From NCBI GenBank assembly GCA_963777605.1, contig CAVZRV010000006.1, positions 32,001 through 96,000 on the forward strand: DNA of 64,000 bases, read 5' to 3'. Of the stretch, positions 14,103-25,210 are shown piece by piece (within the stretch, counting starts at the first letter, position 1; each line of letters opens with the position of its first letter). The position numbers were made by a program, and so were the translations under genes. Source of the stretch: an uncultured Acidobacteriota bacterium. GTDB lineage: Bacteria > Acidobacteriota > UBA6911 > RPQK01 > JAPXNP01. The notes under the pieces were generated by a model, which was not told where the DNA came from, made no database searches, and saw nothing but the letters and a program-made list of their open reading frames with translations.

Positions 14103-14789
14103 ATGGACACCACTAGTCTCAATGGACTGGTCTGGGCGGACGATGATTTTCCCCAGCGGGTCCGCATTCTCATTCGCACCATCGAAATCATCATGCCGGC
14201 ACCGATCGGCGTCAAGCGATCCACTCTGTTCGGGGATGGCTTCCACTCGATCGGAGAGATCTTCGTGGAAGACGCGGTCAACCGCCTTGAGCGGCTGGGG
14301 TTCATTCGGGTAGTCACCAAGGGGCGGGCGACGCTTTACCGCCCGGTCCTCAATGAAGTGACTGAAATTGCGATGAGCTTACAGTTCCACTCTCAATTCA
14401 GGGCAGCCCAGGGTGAGAGGGCTGCCCTGAGGTCCTCCAATCTGACAAGGAGGTACAGAGTTGAATCACAACTGGTTTATTCAAGGGTTAGTGATCCTGA
14501 TCTTGTGCTGGTTCCTCCGGGATCGCGTTCCGTATATCGGCAGACTTCCCGGAGATTTCGACATTGTCTTCGGCAACGTCCGGTTGTTCCTGCCCATCAT
14601 GTCCGGGCTGCTGCTCAGCCTGGCCTGGTCCGTCATCCGGGGGATGCTCGATGGACGGTAAGAAGCTTGCGCCCTTGGCTGCATTTCTTTTGCTCGTTCC
14701 CCCGATCGATCGGGTTTTCAACCGATTCAACCGGGAGTTCTTCGAAGCGGTCGGGCAGGTTGCCGACCTGCTCGGGGAACACTCGGTGA
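14103..14789 (+). CDS. Winged-helix-like protein; probably only the first 95 aa or so are real, with the stop lost
   Basis: AGGAGGT SD; VEDAVNRLERLGFIRVVTKGRATLYR is a wHTH wing motif; the tail overlaps the DUF2905 gene. Confidence 0.5.
   Translation: MDTTSLNGLVWADDDFPQRVRILIRTIEIIMPAPIGVKRSTLFGDGFHSIGEIFVEDAVNRLERLGFIRVVTKGRATLYRPVLNEVTEIAMSLQFHSQFRAAQGERAALRSSNLTRRYRVESQLVYSRVSDPDLVLVPPGSRSVYRQTSRRFRHCLRQRPVVPAHHVRAAAQPGLVRHPGDARWTVRSLRPWLHFFCSFPRSIGFSTDSTGSSSKRSGRLPTCSGNTR
14398..14430. terminator. 12-bp perfect hairpin TCAGGGCAGCCC-N9-GGGCTGCCCTGA
   Basis: Seen directly; no U tract, so function is uncertain. Confidence 0.4.
14461..14661 (+). CDS. DUF2905-family small membrane protein
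   Basis: IGRLPGDFDIVFGNVRLFLPIMSGLLLSL signature; AGGAGGT SD before TTG. Confidence 0.8.
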   Translation: MNHNWFIQGLVILILCWFLRDRVPYIGRLPGDFDIVFGNVRLFLPIMSGLLLSLAWSVIRGMLDGR

Positions 14790-14860
14790 TCACCATTGGT
14801 CTCGTGGCCCTGCTTCTTGGCAGTGGTCCAGACACTAAGGAGGAACAAGATGCCCTTTAA
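14651..14860 (+). CDS. Small membrane protein (MDGKKLAPLAAFLLL...)
   Basis: Two hydrophobic segments; overlaps both neighbours. Confidence 0.5.
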   Translation: MDGKKLAPLAAFLLLVPPIDRVFNRFNREFFEAVGQVADLLGEHSVITIGLVALLLGSGPDTKEEQDAL

Positions 14861-15316
14861 CTTGTTCGACTCCCCCCGCCACTATTCTCCGACGGAGATT
14901 CTCAGCCAGCGCTTAGATCAGTGGGGCTACCCCAGCGGCAATAGCTACTGGTGGCGCCGCTATCCGGACCGGGCGGTCGAGGAACACAAATAAAGATGCT
15001 CAACAGCACCAATGCGGTTCCCGATTTCCAAGGAGACTCCTTGGTCTGGGTCGAGGAAATCGAAACCGATTTCGGGCTCAGTACCTATTGGCAGTCGTTC
15101 GGGCCCGTACTTCCCCTCGGATCGGCCGAAAGCGTTCGCGCCGGAAGTCGACTGCCACAAACACCGCAACTCCGACAAGTCCCTGTGCCTGGCCCACCCC
15201 TCTGAACTCGGCGCGGCACTACCGTCCTCGAGATTAGAAACATGGCGTGTGCATGGTTCTTCGCCTACGACGTGTACTCGAGAACCGGGGAATGGCCCGC
15301 TGCGGAGGCGGATTAG
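14850..15316 (+). pseudogene. Prokaryotic E2 (UBC-like) conjugating enzyme split by about 4 frameshifts
   Basis: AAGGAGG SD and ATG 14850. Stitched frames give WWRRYPDRAVEE / KMLNSTNA...LVWVEEIETDFG / QYLLAVV / PYFPSDRPKAF...HKHRNSDKSLCL / TTVLEIRNMACAWFFAYDVYSRTGEWPAAEAD*. Confidence 0.7.
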
Positions 15317-15325
15317 GAGGATCGG

Positions 15326-15580
15326 ATGCCTTTCAAATTTAGTCTCACTTTCTGGGCTGACCGGCCATTGATCATCACCATCACGGACGGTCAGAGATCG
15401 GTGAGGGTGGACTACTTCCCGGAACCGGAATACGAGTACTACGAAGATTACACGTACTTCCCGGAGACGACCCGCCCACTTACTTCTTTGAGGAAGAACC
15501 CGGACTCCTGCCGGCGCAACGCTACCGGCGAGGAAATCCACGAGAAGGGAGGTGAAAAGAAATGCCCGGTGTCAATCTGA
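15326..15580 (+). CDS. Small Tyr/Glu-rich hypothetical protein
   Basis: AGGAGG SD overlapping the E2 stop; PEPEYEYYEDYTYFPE tract. Confidence 0.5.
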   Translation: MPFKFSLTFWADRPLIITITDGQRSVRVDYFPEPEYEYYEDYTYFPETTRPLTSLRKNPDSCRRNATGEEIHEKGGEKKCPVSI

Positions 15581-15710
15581 ATGCCTTGCGAGACCGTTTA
15601 CAGTCACGGTCAAAAGTCGGAGTCAATAAGAACGGAACTCTGGAACGCGCGATCCGCAAAACGACGGCTCGAAGCAGGGTCCGACGACCCTGCAACCAGC
15701 CCGTTCTTGA
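15562..15710 (+). CDS. Short peptide, about 50 aa if one indel near 15650 is corrected (otherwise reads to 15777)
   Basis: Strong GGAGGTG SD; MPGVNLNALRDRLQSRSKVGVNKNGTLE, then the +2 frame gives DPQNDGSKQGPTTLQPARS*, followed by a hairpin. Confidence 0.5.
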
Positions 15711-15721
15711 GTGGCCGTTCG

Positions 15722-15750
15722 AAGCGGGGGACTCCCGATGGCCCCCGCTT
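15722..15750 (+). promoter_or_regulatory. 9-bp hairpin AAGCGGGGG...CCCCCGCTT between the peptide and JAB genes
   Basis: Seen directly; could be an mRNA stabiliser or partial terminator. Confidence 0.5.
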
Positions 15751-15773
15751 TCAGAAACCAGGAGTCGAAACTC

Positions 15774-16439
15774 ATGAGGAACTATCTCTTTAACCAATCA
15801 TCCGCATCGACCATGCTGGTTGAGTGCTTCCGGCGAGGTGACCAGCGAGAGGCGGGCGGTATCCTCGCCGAACGCGACGGTACGCGGGTGATTACCGACG
15901 CCGTGCCATCCACCGAACATGCCGAGCGCCAACGTTACACCTACTACCAGAGCCCGGAAGACGTCGCCTATCTGAACAACGTTCTCAGAAAGCTCGAGAC
16001 ACAAGGTCGAAGATTCTGCGGCTACTTCCATCGCCACCCCTCCGGTATGACCGGCTTGAGCCAGGGCGATCTGGACAGCTGTCGCCAGATCCTGAAGGAT
16101 CCGCACTATTTTCTGCCGGACGGGCTCTTGATGCTGATCATCACCGATTCGGAACGTTCCCGGATCCCGATTTTCCCGTACCTGGTCCGGCTCGAGGAGG
16201 ACCGTCCGGTGGTCGAACCCGTCACCATGACGATCCTTCCGGATGATCAGGTCGACACGATTCTTTCTTATCTCGAAGTGCCTCAGACAAACCGAAACAG
16301 CAAGGAGTTTTACGATGAAGAAGTGGTTCATTCTGGATCAGGCCCTCTCCGGCCAGTCTTCCGACCTGTACGTCCTGGAAACCGAGGACGGGCATATCAT
16401 CAGTTCGACGCCGCTCGACGCGAGCTTCAAGAAGGTTGA
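15774..16439 (+). CDS. JAB/MPN+ (Mov34) metalloprotease
   Basis: REAGGIL...GYFHRHPSGMTGLSQGD is the JAMM motif E...HxH..x..SxxD; AGGAG SD. Confidence 0.9.
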   Translation: MRNYLFNQSSASTMLVECFRRGDQREAGGILAERDGTRVITDAVPSTEHAERQRYTYYQSPEDVAYLNNVLRKLETQGRRFCGYFHRHPSGMTGLSQGDLDSCRQILKDPHYFLPDGLLMLIITDSERSRIPIFPYLVRLEEDRPVVEPVTMTILPDDQVDTILSYLEVPQTNRNSKEFYDEEVVHSGSGPLRPVFRPVRPGNRGRAYHQFDAARRELQEG

Positions 16440-17459
16440 GCAGGTCCGGGTCCCGTCCCAGACCGATTTTCAGGCTCGCAATGCCGGCCTCGTCGATCCC
16501 TCACGGCTCCAGGAGCATCGCATCCTGATCATCGGTGTCGGCAGCGGCGGTTCGAAGACCGCGACGAGCCTGGTGAGATCGGGGGCGATCAATCTGACAC
16601 TGGTCGATTTCGACCGGGTCGAAGTCTCCAACCTCTGTCGCTCGGAGTACGAACTGCCCGATGTCGGCGAGCTGAAGGTCGAGGCCTTGAAACGGCGCCT
16701 GTTGCGGATCAACCCGATGGCCCGGATCGAGGTCATCAGTAAGAACCTGCATGAGATGAGCCGCACTGAGGTCGAAGAGCTAATCGCGGGGCACGATCTC
16801 TGCTTTGAGTGCACCGACGATCCCAAGACCAAGCTGATCATCAACGCGGTCGCCTACGATCAGATCCCGGTGATCTACCCGGCCGTCTACGACGGGGGCA
16901 AGGGGGCGAGGTGCTCTACACCCTGCCCGGCATCACGCCCTGTTATCAGTGCATCATGGGCTCGATTCTTCCGCAGATGACCGAGGTCAAACGGGGGGAT
17001 TGGGACTATACGACCGGCACGCTGAAGCCGATGGCGGGGCTGAACTCCCACATCGACGTGGTGGTTGCGCGAAGTATCGATATCGCCCTGGCCATTCTGT
17101 CGGCAGGAACCGAGACGGATCGCTCGGACAAAGTCCTGGTGCCGGGTTCTTCCATTCTCTTTATCGGCAACGAGAGTGGGTTCTTCATTTTCGACGAGCC
17201 TTTCCAGGAGATCTGGGGGGAGACGGAAATCGACCCCGACTGTCCCTGTCAGCAAGCCCCCAGCCGGGAACCCGAGGGCAAACGCGATGAAGCGATCGAT
17301 GCCGAGGCTATCGCCTCGAGACCGGAAGATCCTCAACCTGTTGCGGCTGAGCCCGCACACGACGTCCCAGCTCGCCCGTCTCCTGTTTCCGAACCGGAAG
17401 AAGGCGAGTCAGCGGCTTCGGCAACTGACCGCGGCCGGCCACCTGAAACGGTTCAGTAG
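16315..17459 (+). CDS. E1-like ThiF/MoeB adenylyltransferase with one frameshift at the G run near 16900
   Basis: IIGVGSGGS, DFDRVEVSNLCR and KVEALKRRLLRINP; after the shift GEVLYTLPGITPCYQC...DPDCPC (Zn-binding Cys pairs). Confidence 0.85.
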
Positions 17460-18034
17460 CCCAATCGTCCACCCGACCGGCCGGCCCGAGTTCGTCTATA
17501 CGGGCCGGTCGGGTGCCGCGCAGCTATCACCTGATCCGACACGCACTTCAGGTGTCCGAGGTAACCGTGATCCTGCACGAATGGTTAGCTGAGAACCCGG
17601 AATTTACGGGCCGTCTCTACTGGCCGCAACAGGTCATACTGACGGGCGGGATCATTCCGGATGGGATCTTCACCGTGGCCCAAGGTGATCGGATGCTGCT
17701 CTTCCTGATCGAGGTGGATCGGGGCACGGAATCAAAGGCCGGTGCAGACTACAGCGTCCGTCGGAAGCTCATCGCCTATGGCGAATACTTCGATTCGGGA
17801 AGGTTTGCGGAGGATTACGCGATGCTCGGGACGTTCAACTCCTTTCGAGTGGTCTTCGTCTCTGTATCGGAATTGGCGTTGCCGGGGCTGCTCCGAATCG
17901 CCGCGGAAACCCAGACTGATTTCGTCTACTTCAAGCCAATGTCAAAGCTCACTCCCAAGACCTTTCCCGAGTCATGGGCTACGGCAAACCAGGATCGAGC
18001 GGACCTCTTTGGACGCACCGAGAGACAGACATGA
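17287..18034 (+). CDS. Replication-relaxation (Replic_Relax) family protein; frameshift near 17510
   Basis: RDRKILNLL...TTSQLARLLF...ASQRLRQL (wHTH), then IRHALQVSE, IIPDGIF and FLIEVDRGTE...KLIAY. Confidence 0.8.
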
Positions 18035-20313
18035 AAGACACCCGCCCCATCGAACTTGCCCGCCATGCTTTCGAAGGGCTCCTGCACCAGTCTCTGCTCG
18101 CGGAAGGCTCGAAGGGATGCGACGCGACTCTCCACTCCTACCCCGTCGATCTAGAGCCCCATTTCGGGCGCTTTGATCCGTCGCGCATACACGCTTCGAA
18201 GATAAGCCCCGGGATTCCGGAAGATCCGGTTCCCGAACGGGCCTGGTCGTCCTTTCGCCTCCGGCTTCCCCGTCAGTCGATCGCTCCCAATCAGGTCGTT
18301 GCCGCCATCGAGGCCTCGAGCATTCAAACGACCCGCTTCGCGTTCGAGATCGTCGCTGATGCCGGAAAGGCCGACGTGTATCTTGTGGCCGACGATCCCG
18401 AGTCCGCTTCCTTCATGCGGGATGCGTGGCTCAGTCACTGTCCGGGCGTGGTCCTGATTCCCTGGGAGGATCCCTGGAAAGACCTGTTGTCGGAGACTGA
18501 TCTCCGAGTTTGGGAAGCCTATCCCCTCCCCCTTACTCCCGACGGCTGGCCGTTCCCCGCTCGCCGAACTCTTCCCTTGCTTCTGCGCCAGGCGGCACGC
18601 CTTCGCGCGGGAGTCCGTTTGGTCTATCAGATTCTCTTTCAGTCGGTCCGCCACGACTGGCATCGAAACATCTACCTGCTGACGGCGGCCGAAACCACCG
18701 CCCAGGGTCGCATCCCCTGGCGGCATACCACACAAGCAGCGATCAAGCCGCCCGATCAGCCTCTGGTTGCTGCGATTCTCCGGATCGCACTCCTCGGAGG
18801 AGCCGACTCGCCGGCCGTCGATCCGGCACGCTACTGGGCGGGTTTCAGTCAAGGCGGCCGCCCCTTGCAGGTCAGAAGACCTGTCCAGTTCCGGGAGGTT
18901 CTCGACCAGCCTGCTCTCCTCTCGATGCTCTCCCGGCGGCGCACCCATGCACCAGGCGTCCTGCTGACGGCGGAAGAACTGTCGGCCTTCATTCAAGTGC
19001 CTGAGCAGGCAACCACGACACTCCGCATCGACTGGACCCGAGGGCTCGAAGTCCCCACGCGCTTTCAGGCTTCGGGGCGGCTTCTCGGGTTCAACTACTC
19101 GCACGCGGAACCCACGCCGGTTCGCCTGCCCGATACGGAACGAAACCGCAGCATCTATCAGATCGGCTCCTCCCGAAAAGGCAAGAGCAACTCGATCCTG
19201 CATCAATGTCTCGAGCTGGCGCGATCCGGCAGTGGGCTTGCCCTGATCGATCCGCATCGATCAACCGCCTTCGATCTGGTCCGTGCCCTTCCGCCCGAGG
19301 CTCTCGACCGAGTTGTGTGGTGCGACTTTCAAGACCCGGACTTTGTCCTGGACTATAACCCCTTCGATGCTCCCGACAGCTTCGGCCGCCGGGCTACGGA
19401 GTACGTCCACAGTTTCAAGCACCTCTTCGAGGCAGGCTCGTTTCACCGGATGGGTCGCATCCTGGGCTTGGGCGTCCATGCGCTGTTCGACCTCAAGGAG
19501 AATCTCGCCACCTTCTCGCGCCTCTTCGCCGCTACCGCAGAGGGCGAGCGCCTGCGGGCACGCGTCATCGCCCGATCCCAGAATCCCGATGTGCAACGCT
19601 TCTTCGCTGATGAGGTCCGATCGCTTCCCTCAGAAGCCATCACACCGATTCTTAATCGGATTTCGACGCTCTTGCTCGATGAGAGCGCGCGCCGCATTTT
19701 CGAGCGTCGAGAGAACAAGCTCGACATCCCCACCATTCTTCGCGAAGGACGGTTGTTGGTCGTCGCCCTGCCGTCGAATATCGATGTCGCCAACATTGTC
19801 GGGGGGATGCTTCTCGCCCAGATCCAAAAGGCAGGCCTTGCTCGCATCGGGCGTGATGAGCCCGATTTCTACGTCTTTCTCGACGAGTTTCATCGGTTCT
19901 TGAACTCGGCCAAGATCCTGGAGAGCCTCCTCAACGAATGTGCCAAGGCAGGCCTCTTTCTCTGCATGGCGCATCAGGAAACCGGCCAACTGAGTACCGA
20001 GCTCTTCCGAGCGGCCCTGACCGCTCCGCTCCTCATGGTCTTCGGCGTCAACTACGAAGATGCCCGCAAGTTCGTGCCGATCTTCAACGGTCGCATCCAG
20101 GTCGATGATCTCCTGTCGCTCCGGGTCGGAGAGGTCTGCGCCCGGCTCGATCAGGACATCGTGGATTTCCGTTGCCCTCCGCCACCAGCGGATCTCTCGG
20201 AAGAACGCGCCCGTCACGTGATTGAAGCAAGCCGGCGCCTCTACTACACACCGATCCATGAAATCGGGCGGTCCCGAAAGACCACTCAATCTCGACACTT
20301 GGACCATTTCTAA
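18031..20313 (+). CDS. VirD4/TraD-like type IV coupling ATPase
   Basis: Walker A GSSRKGKS, LALIDPH, Walker B FYVFLDEFHRF, AHQETGQL; ATGA overlap with the relaxase. Confidence 0.85.
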   Translation: MKDTRPIELARHAFEGLLHQSLLAEGSKGCDATLHSYPVDLEPHFGRFDPSRIHASKISPGIPEDPVPERAWSSFRLRLPRQSIAPNQVVAAIEASSIQTTRFAFEIVADAGKADVYLVADDPESASFMRDAWLSHCPGVVLIPWEDPWKDLLSETDLRVWEAYPLPLTPDGWPFPARRTLPLLLRQAARLRAGVRLVYQILFQSVRHDWHRNIYLLTAAETTAQGRIPWRHTTQAAIKPPDQPLVAAILRIALLGGADSPAVDPARYWAGFSQGGRPLQVRRPVQFREVLDQPALLSMLSRRRTHAPGVLLTAEELSAFIQVPEQATTTLRIDWTRGLEVPTRFQASGRLLGFNYSHAEPTPVRLPDTERNRSIYQIGSSRKGKSNSILHQCLELARSGSGLALIDPHRSTAFDLVRALPPEALDRVVWCDFQDPDFVLDYNPFDAPDSFGRRATEYVHSFKHLFEAGSFHRMGRILGLGVHALFDLKENLATFSRLFAATAEGERLRARVIARSQNPDVQRFFADEVRSLPSEAITPILNRISTLLLDESARRIFERRENKLDIPTILREGRLLVVALPSNIDVANIVGGMLLAQIQKAGLARIGRDEPDFYVFLDEFHRFLNSAKILESLLNECAKAGLFLCMAHQETGQLSTELFRAALTAPLLMVFGVNYEDARKFVPIFNGRIQVDDLLSLRVGEVCARLDQDIVDFRCPPPPADLSEERARHVIEASRRLYYTPIHEIGRSRKTTQSRHLDHF

Positions 20314-23898: not shown

Positions 23899-24216
23899 AT
23901 GTCCCCCGAGGAGGTTGCCCTGTTCCTCCGCAAGAGCTTGAGTTGGGTTTATAAGCACGCTGAGGAATTGGGCGCTGTGAAGCTCGGGGGTTCCTTGCTG
24001 TTCCCCAGCAAGGAGGACCTCTATGAGCGTTTATTCAACGAAAGGCAAGGGGTGGCGATACGACTTCAAGCTGAACGGCCGTCGCTACACCGGAGCCTGG
24101 TTCAAGACAAAGAGAAAGGCCACCGAGTCCGAAGAGGAAAGGAGGAAAGAAGTACTGAAACCCGAGGAGGTCGAAAGTCAGACCCCAACCGACATGGCCT
24201 TCTTGGAACTGGTTAA
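23899..24216 (+). CDS. Excisionase-like HTH protein
   Basis: MSPEEVALFLRKSLSWVYKHAEELGAVKLGGSLLF; overlaps the integrase 5' end. Confidence 0.7.
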   Translation: MSPEEVALFLRKSLSWVYKHAEELGAVKLGGSLLFPSKEDLYERLFNERQGVAIRLQAERPSLHRSLVQDKEKGHRVRRGKEERSTETRGGRKSDPNRHGLLGTG

Positions 24217-25120
24217 TCACCGCCTCGATTTTGTGCAGGCGTTCCGATCGGATCACTACTATCAGGACACCTGTTGCATGGCGAGACGTTGGGTTGTCGA
24301 ATGGGATGGCCGGCTGTGTGGTGAGTTTACCCAGGAAATGATCGAGAGTTTCTTGATGAAGCGTGCCAAGGTATCCCACTATGCGGCAAACATGGATCTG
24401 AAACTGCTCCGGGCGCTGTTCAACCATGGAATCAAGCGCCGGTTCATCCGTGGCAATCCGACGACCGGTGTCGAGTTCTTCCCGGTCGAGAAGCGAATCA
24501 AGTACGTCCCTCCCGCGGAAGATGTGCGGCGGTTGATCTGGAGCGCGGAAAAGGACGATCGCGATTATCTGATCGTGATTGCCGAAACGATGGCCCGGGT
24601 CGGAGAGGTGAACCGCCTGGTCTGGGACGATGTCGATTTCCGGGAACGAACGGTTGTCCTTTACACGCGGAAAAAGCGTGGAGGTCACCTGACGCCTCGC
24701 AAGGTCCCGATGACCGACCTGCTCTACCGAACCCTCCACCGTCGATTCGAACAGCGGGATCAGGCGAAGCCCTGGGTCTTCTGGCATCGCTACAAGGACA
24801 AGAAGAAGGGCGTCCTGGTGGAAGGACCATACCTGAGGCGAAAACGATTTCTCAAGAGCCTCTGTGAGAAGGTGGGCGTCCGCCCGATCGGCTTCCACGC
24901 CCTTCGCCACAGCGGGGCGTCGATACTCGAACACGCCAATGTCTCGATCAGTACGATTCAGCGCTTACTCGGTCACGAGAACCGCACCACGACCGAAATT
25001 TATCTCCACAGCCTGGGACAGCCGGAGCGGGAAGCCATCCGGATTTTCGAAGGTTTGAGAGAAAAGTCCCACACAGAGTCACACACAGAAGCGAACGATG
25101 CGCAGGAGCAATCTGCGTAA
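24023..25120 (+). CDS. int: Tyrosine recombinase / phage-type integrase
   Basis: ARVGE, HALRH, LLGH and TTEIY catalytic motifs; N-terminal arm-binding domain (KGWRYDF). Confidence 0.95.
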   Translation: MSVYSTKGKGWRYDFKLNGRRYTGAWFKTKRKATESEEERRKEVLKPEEVESQTPTDMAFLELVNHRLDFVQAFRSDHYYQDTCCMARRWVVEWDGRLCGEFTQEMIESFLMKRAKVSHYAANMDLKLLRALFNHGIKRRFIRGNPTTGVEFFPVEKRIKYVPPAEDVRRLIWSAEKDDRDYLIVIAETMARVGEVNRLVWDDVDFRERTVVLYTRKKRGGHLTPRKVPMTDLLYRTLHRRFEQRDQAKPWVFWHRYKDKKKGVLVEGPYLRRKRFLKSLCEKVGVRPIGFHALRHSGASILEHANVSISTIQRLLGHENRTTTEIYLHSLGQPEREAIRIFEGLREKSHTESHTEANDAQEQSA

Positions 25121-25134
25121 ACTATTGATTTTAT

Positions 25135-25210
25135 TGGTGGGTCGTGTTGGATTCGAACCAACGGCCCTCTGATTAAAAGTCAGATGCTCTGCCAACTGAG
25201 CTAACGACCC
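25135..25210 (-). tRNA. tRNA-Lys (UUU)
   Basis: GGGTCGTTAGCTCAGTTGGCAGAGCATCTGACTTTTAATCAGAGGGCCGTTGGTTCGAATCCAACACGACCCACCA: cloverleaf, TTT anticodon, encoded CCA. Confidence 0.97.

What the first reader, a model, noticed from the sequence alone, without database searches (positions are those of the whole stretch)
15548..15750. Candidate modifier/precursor peptide between E2 and JAB
Seen: a very strong SD (GGAGGTG) precedes MPGVNLNALRDRLQSRSKVGVNKNGTLE. One indel gives DPQNDGSKQGPTTLQPARS* ending at 15710, immediately before a 9-bp hairpin, a layout typical of abundant small substrates placed ahead of their enzymes. There is no beta-grasp pattern or terminal Gly-Gly. Inference: a Pup-like or RiPP-like tag whose C-terminus is trimmed by JAB and activated by E1. 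The exact C-terminus is uncertain because of indels.
Basis: inference. Interest (0 to 1): 0.72.

Follow-up and report, generated by a model that had tools for sequence, protein, structure and literature searches.

The report
Conserved peptide gene inside bacterial E2-JAB-E1 operon
A small gene for a floppy peptide of about 50 residues sits between the ubiquitin-type enzymes of a mobile element, is conserved in every related locus found, and may be a new kind of protein tag, though the copy in this window is frame-broken.

Summary
A GGGAGGTG ribosome-binding site (15547-15554) precedes ATG 15562. The reading runs in one frame to 15645, then in a second frame to TGA 15708-15710. A 9-bp hairpin follows (15722-15750).

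All 8 related loci fetched carry an unbroken 52-56 aa ORF at this position, between a UBC-fold E2 and a JAB peptidase, with a ThiF-type E1 downstream. A profile search of 1.84 billion proteins found 35 members. One is a 51-aa intact near-twin of the window peptide. Three are peptide-JAB fusions.

The family has an N-terminal helix, a variable middle and a near-invariant C-terminal TTLEPxRF[F/Y] motif, followed by 0-4 variable residues. It has no beta-grasp fold, no Gly-Gly and no known family.

My best reading (0.55) is a disordered, free-standing tag. JAB would trim its tail and the E1 would activate the exposed end, as Cap2 activates the disordered tail of CBASS cyclases. Conjugation itself is not shown. 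E1-peptide co-folding gave only weak support.

The window copy, along with its E2, E1 and Replic_Relax genes, carries local indels. Independent contigs lack several of them, so this is either local assembly error or decay.

The parts
14461..14661 (+). DUF2905 small membrane protein, first gene of the conserved block in the window and in G078
   Evidence: 67% identical to the G078 homologue, which matches Pfam DUF2905 at 2.2e-12.
14651..14860 (+). Small two-TM protein upstream of E2
   Evidence: 30% identical to the G078 64-aa protein. I read similar small hydrophobic ORFs directly upstream of E2 in L007 and L010 by eye.
14850..15313 (+). UBC-fold E2-like gene, read in four pieces (three frame switches, near 14985, 15100 and 15200)
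   Evidence: Pieces align to the intact 159-aa G078 E2 in alternating frames. In the family, His and Cys are invariant. The AF2 model has pLDDT 92 and its top Foldseek hit is a CBASS E2, 8hsb_B. PADLOC E2 models match at 1e-6.
15326..15580 (+). ORF84, an acidic and aromatic small ORF present only in this lineage; status uncertain
   Evidence: No family hit. It is absent from the other 8 loci. One otherwise identical contig has an extra C behind 15465, which changes its frame. A related strain keeps a similar N-terminus.
15547..15554 (+). Shine-Dalgarno GGGAGGTG of the peptide gene
   Evidence: An AGGAGG-type SD lies 5-9 nt before the start in 8 of 8 loci that include the start.
15562..15710 (+). 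The peptide gene. Frame A runs 15562-15645 and frame B runs 15645-15710 (stop TGA 15708-15710). The frame breaks in the A-run at 15644-15645
   Evidence: P0027 is the intact near-twin. The window's C-terminus (..QPARS) lacks the family's R-F-[F/Y] motif.
15722..15750 (+). 9-bp G+C-rich hairpin after the peptide stop, with no T-run
   Evidence: A hairpin lies at this position in 9 of 9 loci. Seven of the 9 have z <= -2.8, and the sequence is not conserved. The scan does not call it an intrinsic terminator, and there is no Rfam match.
15774..16439 (+). JAB/JAMM peptidase, intact, with E...HxH...S..D present
   Evidence: Prok-JAB at 0.0036. PADLOC JAB models reach 7.6e-10. The catalytic residues are invariant in the alignment.
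16315..17459 (+). ThiF-type E1 adenylating enzyme, with one frame break near 16899
   Evidence: ThiF at 1.8e-30. The two frames align to the G078 E1. Contigs of 4 of 4 runs carry an extra A behind 16899.
17287..18034 (+). Replic_Relax protein of the mobile element, with one frame break near 17502
   Evidence: Contigs of 2 of the 3 runs that cover the site lack one base at 17502.
17974..20313 (+). TraD/HerA-like ATPase of the element
   Evidence: Weak TraG-D_C hit. The same PADLOC ATPase model (mad8) matches the ATPases of L009 and L013.

Best explanation
The small ORF is a real, translated gene. It is the fourth constant member of an E2 / peptide / JAB / E1 module that rides on mobile elements. 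In the window the element is integrative, with an integrase beside tRNA-Lys.

I propose that the peptide is the module's modifier: a largely unstructured tag of about 50 aa that takes the place of a beta-grasp Ubl. The proposed steps, all inferred, are:
1. The peptide is made in excess. It has a strong SD, and the hairpin after its stop may damp or stabilise transcription ahead of the enzymes.
2. JAB removes the 0-4 variable residues that follow the conserved ...TTLEPxRF[F/Y] end.
3. The E1 adenylates the exposed carboxylate.
4. The tag passes to the invariant Cys of the E2 and then to an unknown target.
5. JAB can also reverse the conjugation.

Shown here: the gene is conserved and shows a coding signature; its position is fixed; the enzymes carry catalytic residues; fusions to JAB exist; and no canonical Ubl gene was detected in the loci scanned.

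The window's own copy is frame-broken and its C-terminal motif is damaged. Here it is either mis-assembled or decayed.
For: Position and conservation:
- The same ORF lies between E2 and JAB in 8 of 8 related loci, plus the window.
- The profile search found 35 family members at E<=1e-3.
- Codon positions differ at 0.44/0.29/0.67, with 365 synonymous against 558 non-synonymous codon differences over 1105 codon pairs.

C-terminus:
- The best conserved part is at the C-terminus. Of 38 sequences, R is at -3 in 34 and F at -2 in 35.
- A variable tail follows. Among 35 free-standing members its length is 0 (3), 1 (6), 2 (19), 3 (5), 4 (1) or 12 (1) residues. I recall this as the pattern of Ubl precursors.

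Link to JAB:
- Three of 35 representatives are peptide-JAB fusions with intact HxH..S..D. P0021 and P0023 have linkers of 5-10 aa. P0014 looks like read-through of the spacer.

Enzymes:
- E2 has invariant His and Cys and a UBC fold.
- E1 keeps its nucleotide-binding and Zn-site residues.
- JAB keeps its metal site.
- All three match CBASS-type E2, JAB and E1-E2 models in PADLOC.

No rival modifier detected:
- No Pfam Ubl family matched among 77 + strand ORFs of 45-260 aa in 8 loci.

Precedent:
- Cap2's E1 site binds only the last 7 residues of a disordered cyclase tail that has no Ubl fold (passages of bioRxiv 10.1101/2022.03.31.486616).

Co-folding of L009 E1 + ATP + Mg + peptide:
- The verdict was weak support: median score 0.37 (runs 0.29, 0.47, 0.37) against a best control of 0.00.
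- That mark was reached by 58 of 80 solved complexes and 2 of 110 mismatched pairs. At 0.60 or under it was reached by only 7 of those 80 and by both mismatches.
- The runs agree in at least 79% of contacts, and the partner's pLDDT is at least 58.
- My own alignments and riding ligands differ from the calibration.
Against: - No conjugate, cleavage or adenylate has been observed. Every mechanistic step is inference.
- The presumed mature end is a bulky Phe or Tyr (30 of 38) and rarely Gly (3 of 38). To my recollection, known E1 substrates end in small residues.
- The co-folding pass is of the weak class, which the tool says is 'more often wrong than right unless the guess was likely beforehand'.
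- The three fusions are each seen on a single contig. Because the peptide gene precedes JAB, an N-terminal fusion is what any stop-codon loss would give.
- AF2 of the peptide alone has low confidence (pLDDT 61.5). That fits disorder but also fits a poor model.
- No target is known.
- The window copy lacks the R-F motif and is frame-broken.
Confidence: 0.55

Rival explanations
1. The peptide is a non-conjugated partner of the enzymes, for example a pro-segment or inhibitor of JAB, or an adaptor that recruits targets to E2 or E1. The true modifier would be something else, such as a host ThiS/MoaD protein or the C-terminus of a target protein.
For: - The fixed position next to JAB and the fusions to JAB fit a JAB regulator just as well.
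- Iyer et al. 2006 proposed that such mobile E1/E2/JAB clusters may use an endogenous ThiS/MoaD (section 16 passages of PMC1779556).
- The bulky aromatic end is unusual for an E1 substrate.
Against: - The strongest conservation is at the extreme C-terminus and is followed by a variable tail. That is typical of a processed end rather than a binding helix.
- The gene has the expression layout of an abundant product.
- No other candidate modifier is conserved in the loci.
Confidence: 0.22
2. The peptide is a RiPP-like precursor. The E1-like enzyme would modify its C-terminal residue, as MccB or PaaA do, JAB would cut it, and the product would be a free modified peptide rather than a tag.
For: - The E1 profile matches PaaA (4.9e-16) and MccB (5.8e-14) among solved structures.
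- The gene is a small precursor-like ORF placed ahead of its enzymes, with a hairpin after it.
Against: - MoeB, UBA5 and ThiF score better than MccB and PaaA.
- An E2 with invariant Cys and His has no role in known E1-type RiPP routes (recalled).
- The C-terminal 'core' is the conserved part and the middle is variable.
- No exporter or immunity gene is conserved.
Confidence: 0.08
3. This rival concerns the window copy only. The locus here is a decaying remnant and the peptide gene is a pseudogene. The indels would be real lesions, not assembly errors.
For: - There are frame breaks in E2 (3), the peptide (1, plus a damaged C-terminus), E1 (1) and Replic_Relax (1), all within about 2.8 kb.
- ORFs of 797-1330 aa elsewhere in the window are unbroken. 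So the breaks are local and not a genome-wide error rate.
Against: - Contigs of 4 of 4 runs carry the extra A behind 16899. One of them is otherwise identical to the window over 150 bases.
- Another contig identical over 275 bases differs only by one extra C behind 15465.
- Contigs of 2 of the 3 runs that cover the site lack a base at 17502.
- The peptide and E1 breaks are one-base changes in A-runs.
- No in-frame stop substitutions are seen.
- JAB and the ATPase are intact.
- Several variants of the element co-occur in the runs, and that can spoil a consensus.
Confidence: 0.4
4. The ORF is a leader peptide of a transcription attenuator. The hairpin would control JAB-E1 expression and the peptide would have no function of its own.
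For: The hairpin follows the stop in 9 of 9 loci.
Against: - Amino-acid sequence is conserved over the whole length in 35 cluster representatives, with third-position divergence.
- The hairpin lacks a T-run.
- Fusions to JAB exist.
Confidence: 0.04

Closest known systems
Type II CBASS Cap2 (E1-E2) / Cap3 (JAB) acting on the CD-NTase C-terminal tail
   Same: The E2, JAB and E1 match CBASS-type PADLOC models. The nearest solved fold to the E2 is a CBASS E2 (8hsb_B). In CBASS the substrate is not a beta-grasp protein, and only a disordered tail with a conserved end enters the E1 site.
   Different: - No cyclase or effector was found among the ORFs scanned.
- E2 and E1 are separate genes.
- The 'tail' is a free-standing peptide of about 50 aa.
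- The conserved end is RF[F/Y] plus a short tail, not Gly.
Bil operons (BilA Ubl, BilB E2, BilC JAB, BilD E1)
   Same: There are four separate genes encoding an E2, a JAB peptidase, an E1 and a small substrate protein (passages of PMC11601603).
   Different: [quoted passage not shown] This peptide has none.
- The gene order differs. Here the substrate gene lies between E2 and JAB.
- I could not see that paper's Table S1 catalogue. Supplements are closed, so I cannot exclude that such loci are listed there.
Pup (prokaryotic ubiquitin-like protein)
   Same: It is a small, probably disordered tag without a beta-grasp fold.
   Different: Recalled features of Pup are a GGQ/GGE end and ligation by PafA after Dop. 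Here there is no GG[QE] and no Pup family hit. The neighbouring enzymes are E1/E2/JAB.
Atg8/LC3 with ATG7 and ATG4 (recalled)
   Same: A short C-terminal extension is removed after an aromatic-Gly end before E1 activation. Cap2-type E1s are related to ATG7. Three family members end in RFG.
   Different: Atg8 is a beta-grasp protein and its exposed residue is Gly. Here most members have F or Y at that place.
6A-MBL-like E2/E1/JAB + metallo-beta-lactamase clusters (Iyer et al. 2006, type 6a)
   Same: A distant E2 relative in G290 sits in an E2-E2-E1-JAB-MBL cluster. That cluster is preceded by its own conserved small ORF, which ends ...LGGE plus a tail.
   Different: It is a different peptide family (hhalign probability 0.2) with different accessory genes.

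Membership tests
Beta-grasp ubiquitin-like modifiers (ubiquitin, ThiS/MoaD, BilA/BubA) | Beta-grasp fold | tested here: not met
   Members are 37-82 aa. AF2 with 30 sequences gives one helix (residues 5-13) and no sheet, at pLDDT 61.5. There is no Pfam or NCBIfam hit.
Beta-grasp ubiquitin-like modifiers (ubiquitin, ThiS/MoaD, BilA/BubA) | Conserved C-terminal Gly or Gly-Gly | tested here: not met
   The last conserved position is F 19, Y 11, G 3, A 3, S 1, W 1 of 38.
Beta-grasp ubiquitin-like modifiers (ubiquitin, ThiS/MoaD, BilA/BubA) | Encoded with E1, E2 and JAB enzymes | tested here: met
   9 of 9 loci, counting the window.
Pup | C-terminal GGQ/GGE and similarity to the Pup family | tested here: not met
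   One search shows no GG[QE]. There is no Pfam hit.
Pup | PafA/Dop-type ligase nearby | tested here: not met
   No such family appears among 77 ORFs of 8 loci or among the window ORFs scanned. The rest of the genome was not searched.
Type II CBASS (Cap2/Cap3 with CD-NTase substrate) | Cap2-like E1, E2 and Cap3-like JAB | tested here: met
   PADLOC E1-E2 models reach 1.2e-34, JAB models 3.5e-13 and E2 models 1.2e-6. The top E2 fold hit is 8hsb_B.
Type II CBASS (Cap2/Cap3 with CD-NTase substrate) | CD-NTase cyclase and an effector in the operon | tested here: not met
   No cyclase hit among the neighbours scanned.
Type II CBASS (Cap2/Cap3 with CD-NTase substrate) | E2 fused to E1 | tested here: not met
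   They are separate genes in all loci.
Bil operon | Separate E2, JAB and E1 with a beta-grasp BilA | tested here: not met
   The enzymes are separate, but the substrate gene has no beta-grasp fold. Bil-specific models were not available to me.
RiPP precursor of E1-like enzymes (MccA/MccB, PaaP/PaaA) | Conserved leader, variable core, and export or immunity genes | tested here: not met
   The C-terminus is the most conserved part. No transporter family appears among the 77 ORFs.
   AF2 gives pLDDT 92.2. The Foldseek hits listed are E2, UEV or UFC1 chains; the best has E 2.2e-3 and TM 0.61, and none reaches E 1e-3. H102 and C110 are invariant in 42 sequences.

The most novel reading that the evidence does not exclude
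This is the first free-standing peptide tag without a beta-grasp fold that a ubiquitin-type E1-E2 cascade conjugates and a JAB peptidase matures and removes. It would be Pup-like in form and ubiquitin-like in chemistry. Mobile elements in several bacterial phyla carry it. A second, unrelated small-ORF family ending in LGGE upstream of a related E2-E1-JAB-MBL cluster hints that peptide tags of this kind are a wider, overlooked class.
Probability: 0.45. Interest if true: 0.85.

Novelty: new variant of a known kind. Interest (0 to 1): 0.72.

Why it matters
Bacterial E1/E2/JAB systems are currently understood to conjugate either beta-grasp Ubls (Bil, Bub) or the tail of a large enzyme (CBASS cyclases).

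A dedicated, disordered 50-residue tag would be a third solution. It would show that the E1-E2 chemistry needs only a short C-terminal motif. It would also offer a minimal, genetically compact tagging system.

The reading is directly testable with four small genes. I found no description of this peptide family in Pfam, NCBIfam, PADLOC or PHROGs, or in five full-text searches.

Tried and rejected
Searches that found nothing:
- The peptide has no match in Pfam, NCBIfam, PADLOC or PHROGs.
- The peptide profile against PDB sequences gave only weak EF-hand/lanmodulin matches at DPxNDG (E 0.09 and 0.24). I rejected these as chance.
- The ESM Atlas gave no usable hit for P0007.
- The E2 profile found no relative in viral contigs.
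- Rfam gave one sub-threshold match elsewhere and nothing at the hairpin.
- The terminator scan did not call the hairpin.
- No RNA holder was listed for the stretch, so expression could not be examined.

Labels and supplements:
- The database marks the E2 homologues with PF26395. That accession is not in the local Pfam or in any paper searched, so I do not know its name.
- I could not see the supplements of the Bil/Bub papers.

Other checks:
- hhalign of the peptide family against the LGGE small ORF of G290 was not significant. I claim no homology.
- The 71-aa frame is rejected, because its second half has no relatives.
- A canonical Ubl gene in the neighbourhood is rejected for the 77 ORFs scanned.
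- Genome-wide indel noise as the cause of the frame breaks is rejected. ORFs of 797-1330 aa elsewhere in the window are intact.
The E1 was therefore not folded, and JAB-peptide co-folding was not tried.
Full report
WHAT IS IN THE WINDOW

GGGAGGTG lies at 15547-15554 and ATG at 15562. One frame reads MPGVNLNALRDRLQSRSKVGVNKNGTLE, up to 15645. A second frame reads DPQNDGSKQGPTTLQPARS and stops at TGA 15708-15710. A 9-bp G+C-rich stem follows, 15722-15730 paired with 15742-15750.

Taken literally, the DNA gives a 71-aa ORF, 15562-15777.

The neighbours, all on the + strand, are:
- a DUF2905 membrane protein (14461-14661) and a small two-TM protein (14651-14860);
- an E2-like gene (14850-15313), read in four pieces;
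- a lineage-specific ORF of 84 aa (15326-15580);
- the peptide gene;
- an intact JAB peptidase (15774-16439);
- a ThiF-type E1 (16315-17459) with one frame break;
- a Replic_Relax gene (about 17287-18034) with one frame break;
- a TraD/HerA-like ATPase (17974-20313).

Further on lie a RepB-primase-like gene and a tyrosine integrase (23981-25117) next to tRNA-Lys (25135-25210, - strand). The module therefore rides on an integrated mobile element.

THE PEPTIDE IS CONSERVED AND THE TWO-FRAME READING IS RIGHT

The JAB protein has few relatives. Four proteins matched among 279 candidates. Four of 101 related genomes matched, and only G078 matched strongly.

G078 is an Acidobacteriota MAG by its record title. 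It has the same gene order with every gene intact. Between its E2 and JAB it has a 53-aa ORF, MPVDLNQIAQRLKQQQPVGVKKDGRIEPEDPHNDGTRETQSGNTTLQPKRFFH. This ORF aligns to both window pieces in their two frames.

Seven metagenome loci found with a JAB profile all carry the same ORF at the same place. L008 is cut by its contig start.

A profile of seven members, searched against 1.84 billion representatives, gave 35 proteins at E<=1e-3 and 22 at E<=1e-10. Most are free-standing and 37-82 aa long.

One of them is P0027 (51 aa, MPNVDLNALRSRLKSRSKVAVNRDGTLDTRDPQNDGSKQGPTTLQPTSFYE). It is the intact near-twin of the window peptide. Residues 1-28 match frame A and residues 29-46 match frame B exactly. 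Its contig has the same length (1279 bases) as the contig of the 94%-identical JAB protein P0001. That they are the same contig is my inference.

Between seven homologous genes, differences fall 0.44/0.29/0.67 on codon positions 1/2/3, with 365 synonymous codon differences over 1105 codon pairs. So the ORF is under selection as a protein.

ANATOMY OF THE FAMILY

The family has four parts:
- an N-terminal amphipathic stretch (DLNKLAEKL...);
- VGVxxDGxL, followed by DPxNDG;
- a variable middle;
- a near-invariant end, TTLEPxRF[F/Y].

Of 38 sequences, R is at -3 in 34 and F at -2 in 35. The last motif position is F 19, Y 11, G 3, A 3, S 1, W 1.

After the motif come variable residues. Among 35 free-standing members the tail is 0 (3), 1 (6), 2 (19), 3 (5), 4 (1) or 12 (1) residues long. 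Those 35 are 29 database representatives and 6 loci, and L008 may duplicate P0022. P0031 and P0034 did not fit the pattern and are left out of these counts.

AF2 with 30 sequences gives a single helix (residues 5-13) and otherwise low confidence, with pLDDT 61.5 and pTM 0.25. There is no beta-grasp fold.

Every locus that includes the start has an AGGAGG-type SD (8 of 8). Every locus has a hairpin between the peptide stop and the JAB start (9 of 9). Seven of the nine have z <= -2.8; the window has -1.5 and L013 has -0.76. The hairpin sequences are unrelated.

The hairpin is not a canonical terminator and not a known RNA family. Its role is unproven. It may act in attenuation or in transcript stabilisation.

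THE ENZYMES

- E2. The E2 has no hit in the local Pfam. Its profile finds ubiquitin-conjugating enzymes and UEV domains in the PDB, best E 0.0053. Its AF2 model is confident, with pLDDT 92.2. The best Foldseek hit is the stand-alone E2 of an E2-CBASS system (8hsb_B, E 2.2e-3, TM 0.61), followed by eukaryotic E2s. No hit reached E 1e-3. His and Cys are invariant in 42 sequences.
- JAB. JAB keeps E...HxH...S..D.
- E1. The E1 keeps its glycine-rich loop, Arg/Lys/Asp and two Cys pairs. By sequence it is a general E1-like adenylating domain: MoeB 9.7e-24, UBA5, ThiF, PaaA, Cap2 2.7e-15, MccB.
- PADLOC. All three enzymes match the models that PADLOC uses for CBASS accessory proteins: E1-E2 up to 1.2e-34, JAB 3.5e-13, E2 1.2e-6. 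The peptide matches none.
- Neighbours. No cyclase or effector is present among the neighbours scanned.
- Spread. The family is sparse. The E2 profile matched 4 of 401 genomes of the phylum, two of them only distantly. Source names on E1 and E2 homologues include Deltaproteobacteria, Desulfobacterium and Candidatus Scalindua MAGs. No relative was found in viral contigs.

WHAT THE PEPTIDE MOST LIKELY DOES

Four facts point to a substrate that is processed at its C-terminus and handed to the E1:
1. Conservation peaks at the extreme C-terminus and is followed by a disposable tail.
2. Three of 35 representatives are fused through that end to JAB. P0021 and P0023 have linkers of 5-10 aa, and P0014 looks like read-through of the spacer.
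3. No canonical Ubl gene was found among 77 ORFs of 8 loci.
4. Cap2-type E1s are known to accept a disordered, non-Ubl tail, binding only its last seven residues (passages of bioRxiv 10.1101/2022.03.31.486616).

Co-folding of the L009 E1 with ATP, Mg and its own peptide gave weak support:
- The median score was 0.37 (runs 0.29, 0.47, 0.37) against a best control of 0.00.
- That mark was reached by 58 of 80 solved complexes and 2 of 110 mismatched pairs. At 0.60 or below it was reached by only 7 of the 80 and by both mismatches.
- The runs agree in at least 79% of contacts, and the partner's pLDDT is at least 58.
- My own alignments and the ligands depart from the calibration.

Against this reading:
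- Nothing biochemical is shown.
- The exposed residue would usually be Phe or Tyr rather than Gly.
- The fusions are single-contig observations.
- The target is unknown.

I put the tag reading at 0.55. A non-conjugated regulator or adaptor gets 0.22, a RiPP-like product 0.08 and a mere leader peptide 0.04.

STATE OF THE WINDOW COPY

Compared with intact homologues, the window has frame breaks in E2 (3), the peptide (1), E1 (1) and Replic_Relax (1). Its peptide also ends ..QPARS without the R-F motif.

Independent contigs of four public runs were laid on 14800-17600:
- All four carry an extra A behind 16899. One contig is otherwise identical to the window over 150 bases.
- Two of the three runs that cover 17502 lack a base there.
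- A contig identical over 275 bases has an extra C behind 15465, inside ORF84.
- Related-strain contigs read through the peptide in one frame and end with the family motif. They have two more bases than the window before the stop.

The E1 and peptide breaks are one-base differences in A-runs. ORFs of 797-1330 aa elsewhere in the window are unbroken, so the indels are local.

Either the consensus is poor here, perhaps because several variants of the element co-occur in the samples, or this copy is decaying. I cannot decide between these, and I put decay at 0.4.

COMPARISON AND NOVELTY

- Mechanistically, the closest system is the Cap2/Cap3-cyclase arm of type II CBASS.
- Architecturally, the closest is Bil, with four separate genes (passages of PMC11601603).
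- In form, the closest tag is Pup.

It fails the defining tests of each: no cyclase and no E1-E2 fusion; no beta-grasp fold; no GG[QE] and no Pup ligase.

The five operon types of Iyer et al. 2006 (section 14 of PMC1779556, read in full) do not include an E2 / small non-Ubl peptide / JAB / E1 arrangement.

Five full-text searches found no description of it.

I rate it a new variant of a known kind.

Noticed in passing
L019:5304-5498 (+) and L018:6541-6723 (-): This is a second, unrelated small-ORF family of 60-64 aa that ends ...PLTMRE[ND]LGGE plus a short tail. The two copies, from Acidobacteriota genomes of different families, are 58% identical. Each lies directly upstream of a distant relative of the E2. 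In G290 the ORF is followed by E2, a second E2-like gene, E1, JAB and an MBL-fold gene. In G434 the E2 is flanked by transposase-like ORFs, and no E1 or JAB is seen. hhalign against the main peptide family is not significant.
   Followed up: partly
window 15326-15580 (+): ORF84 is an acidic, Tyr/Glu/Pro-rich small ORF between E2 and the peptide gene. It is absent from the other 8 loci. An otherwise identical contig has an extra C behind 15465, which would end the ORF in the peptide's SD region. A related strain keeps a similar N-terminus at divergent DNA, which hints that it is a real gene.
   Followed up: partly
window 14800-17600: One-base indels cluster in about 2.8 kb of the mobile element (E2, ORF84, peptide, E1, Replic_Relax). 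JAB, the ATPase and long ORFs elsewhere in the window are intact. Several 88-99% variants of the stretch co-occur in the same public runs.
   Followed up: partly
window 23981-25210: A tyrosine integrase (Phage_integrase, 5.5e-23) lies directly beside tRNA-Lys(ttt) at 25135-25210 (- strand). This is probably the right end of the integrated element that carries the module. The left end was not sought.
   Followed up: no
proteins P0101-P0142 (E2 homologues): The database marks all 42 E2 homologues with Pfam accession PF26395. That accession is missing from the local Pfam copy and from the papers searched, so a curated family for this E2 may already exist under a name I could not see.
   Followed up: partly
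window 17974-20313; L009:6379-7380; L013:5985-7334: The ATPases downstream of the module in three loci all match the same PADLOC model (mad8). Replic_Relax or a similar wHTH/nuclease-like protein accompanies them. The module seems tied to one kind of mobile-element backbone.
   Followed up: partly
L009:2990-3196, L012:911-1282, L013:2802-2984: A small Cys-rich protein (C-L-G-N-[FW]-C-T-L...D-P-D-C-x-x-C-x-I-D-[EK]-A-L) is conserved upstream of E2 in three loci. These loci lack the DUF2905/two-TM pair seen in the window and G078. This suggests two subtypes of the neighbourhood.
   Followed up: no
protein P0039 (352 aa): This is a weak hit (E 7.7e-4) with five repeats of ..MTQPVGVDETGKLYT.., which resemble the peptide's VGVxxDGxL segment. 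It is probably a shared short hairpin motif rather than homology.
   Followed up: no
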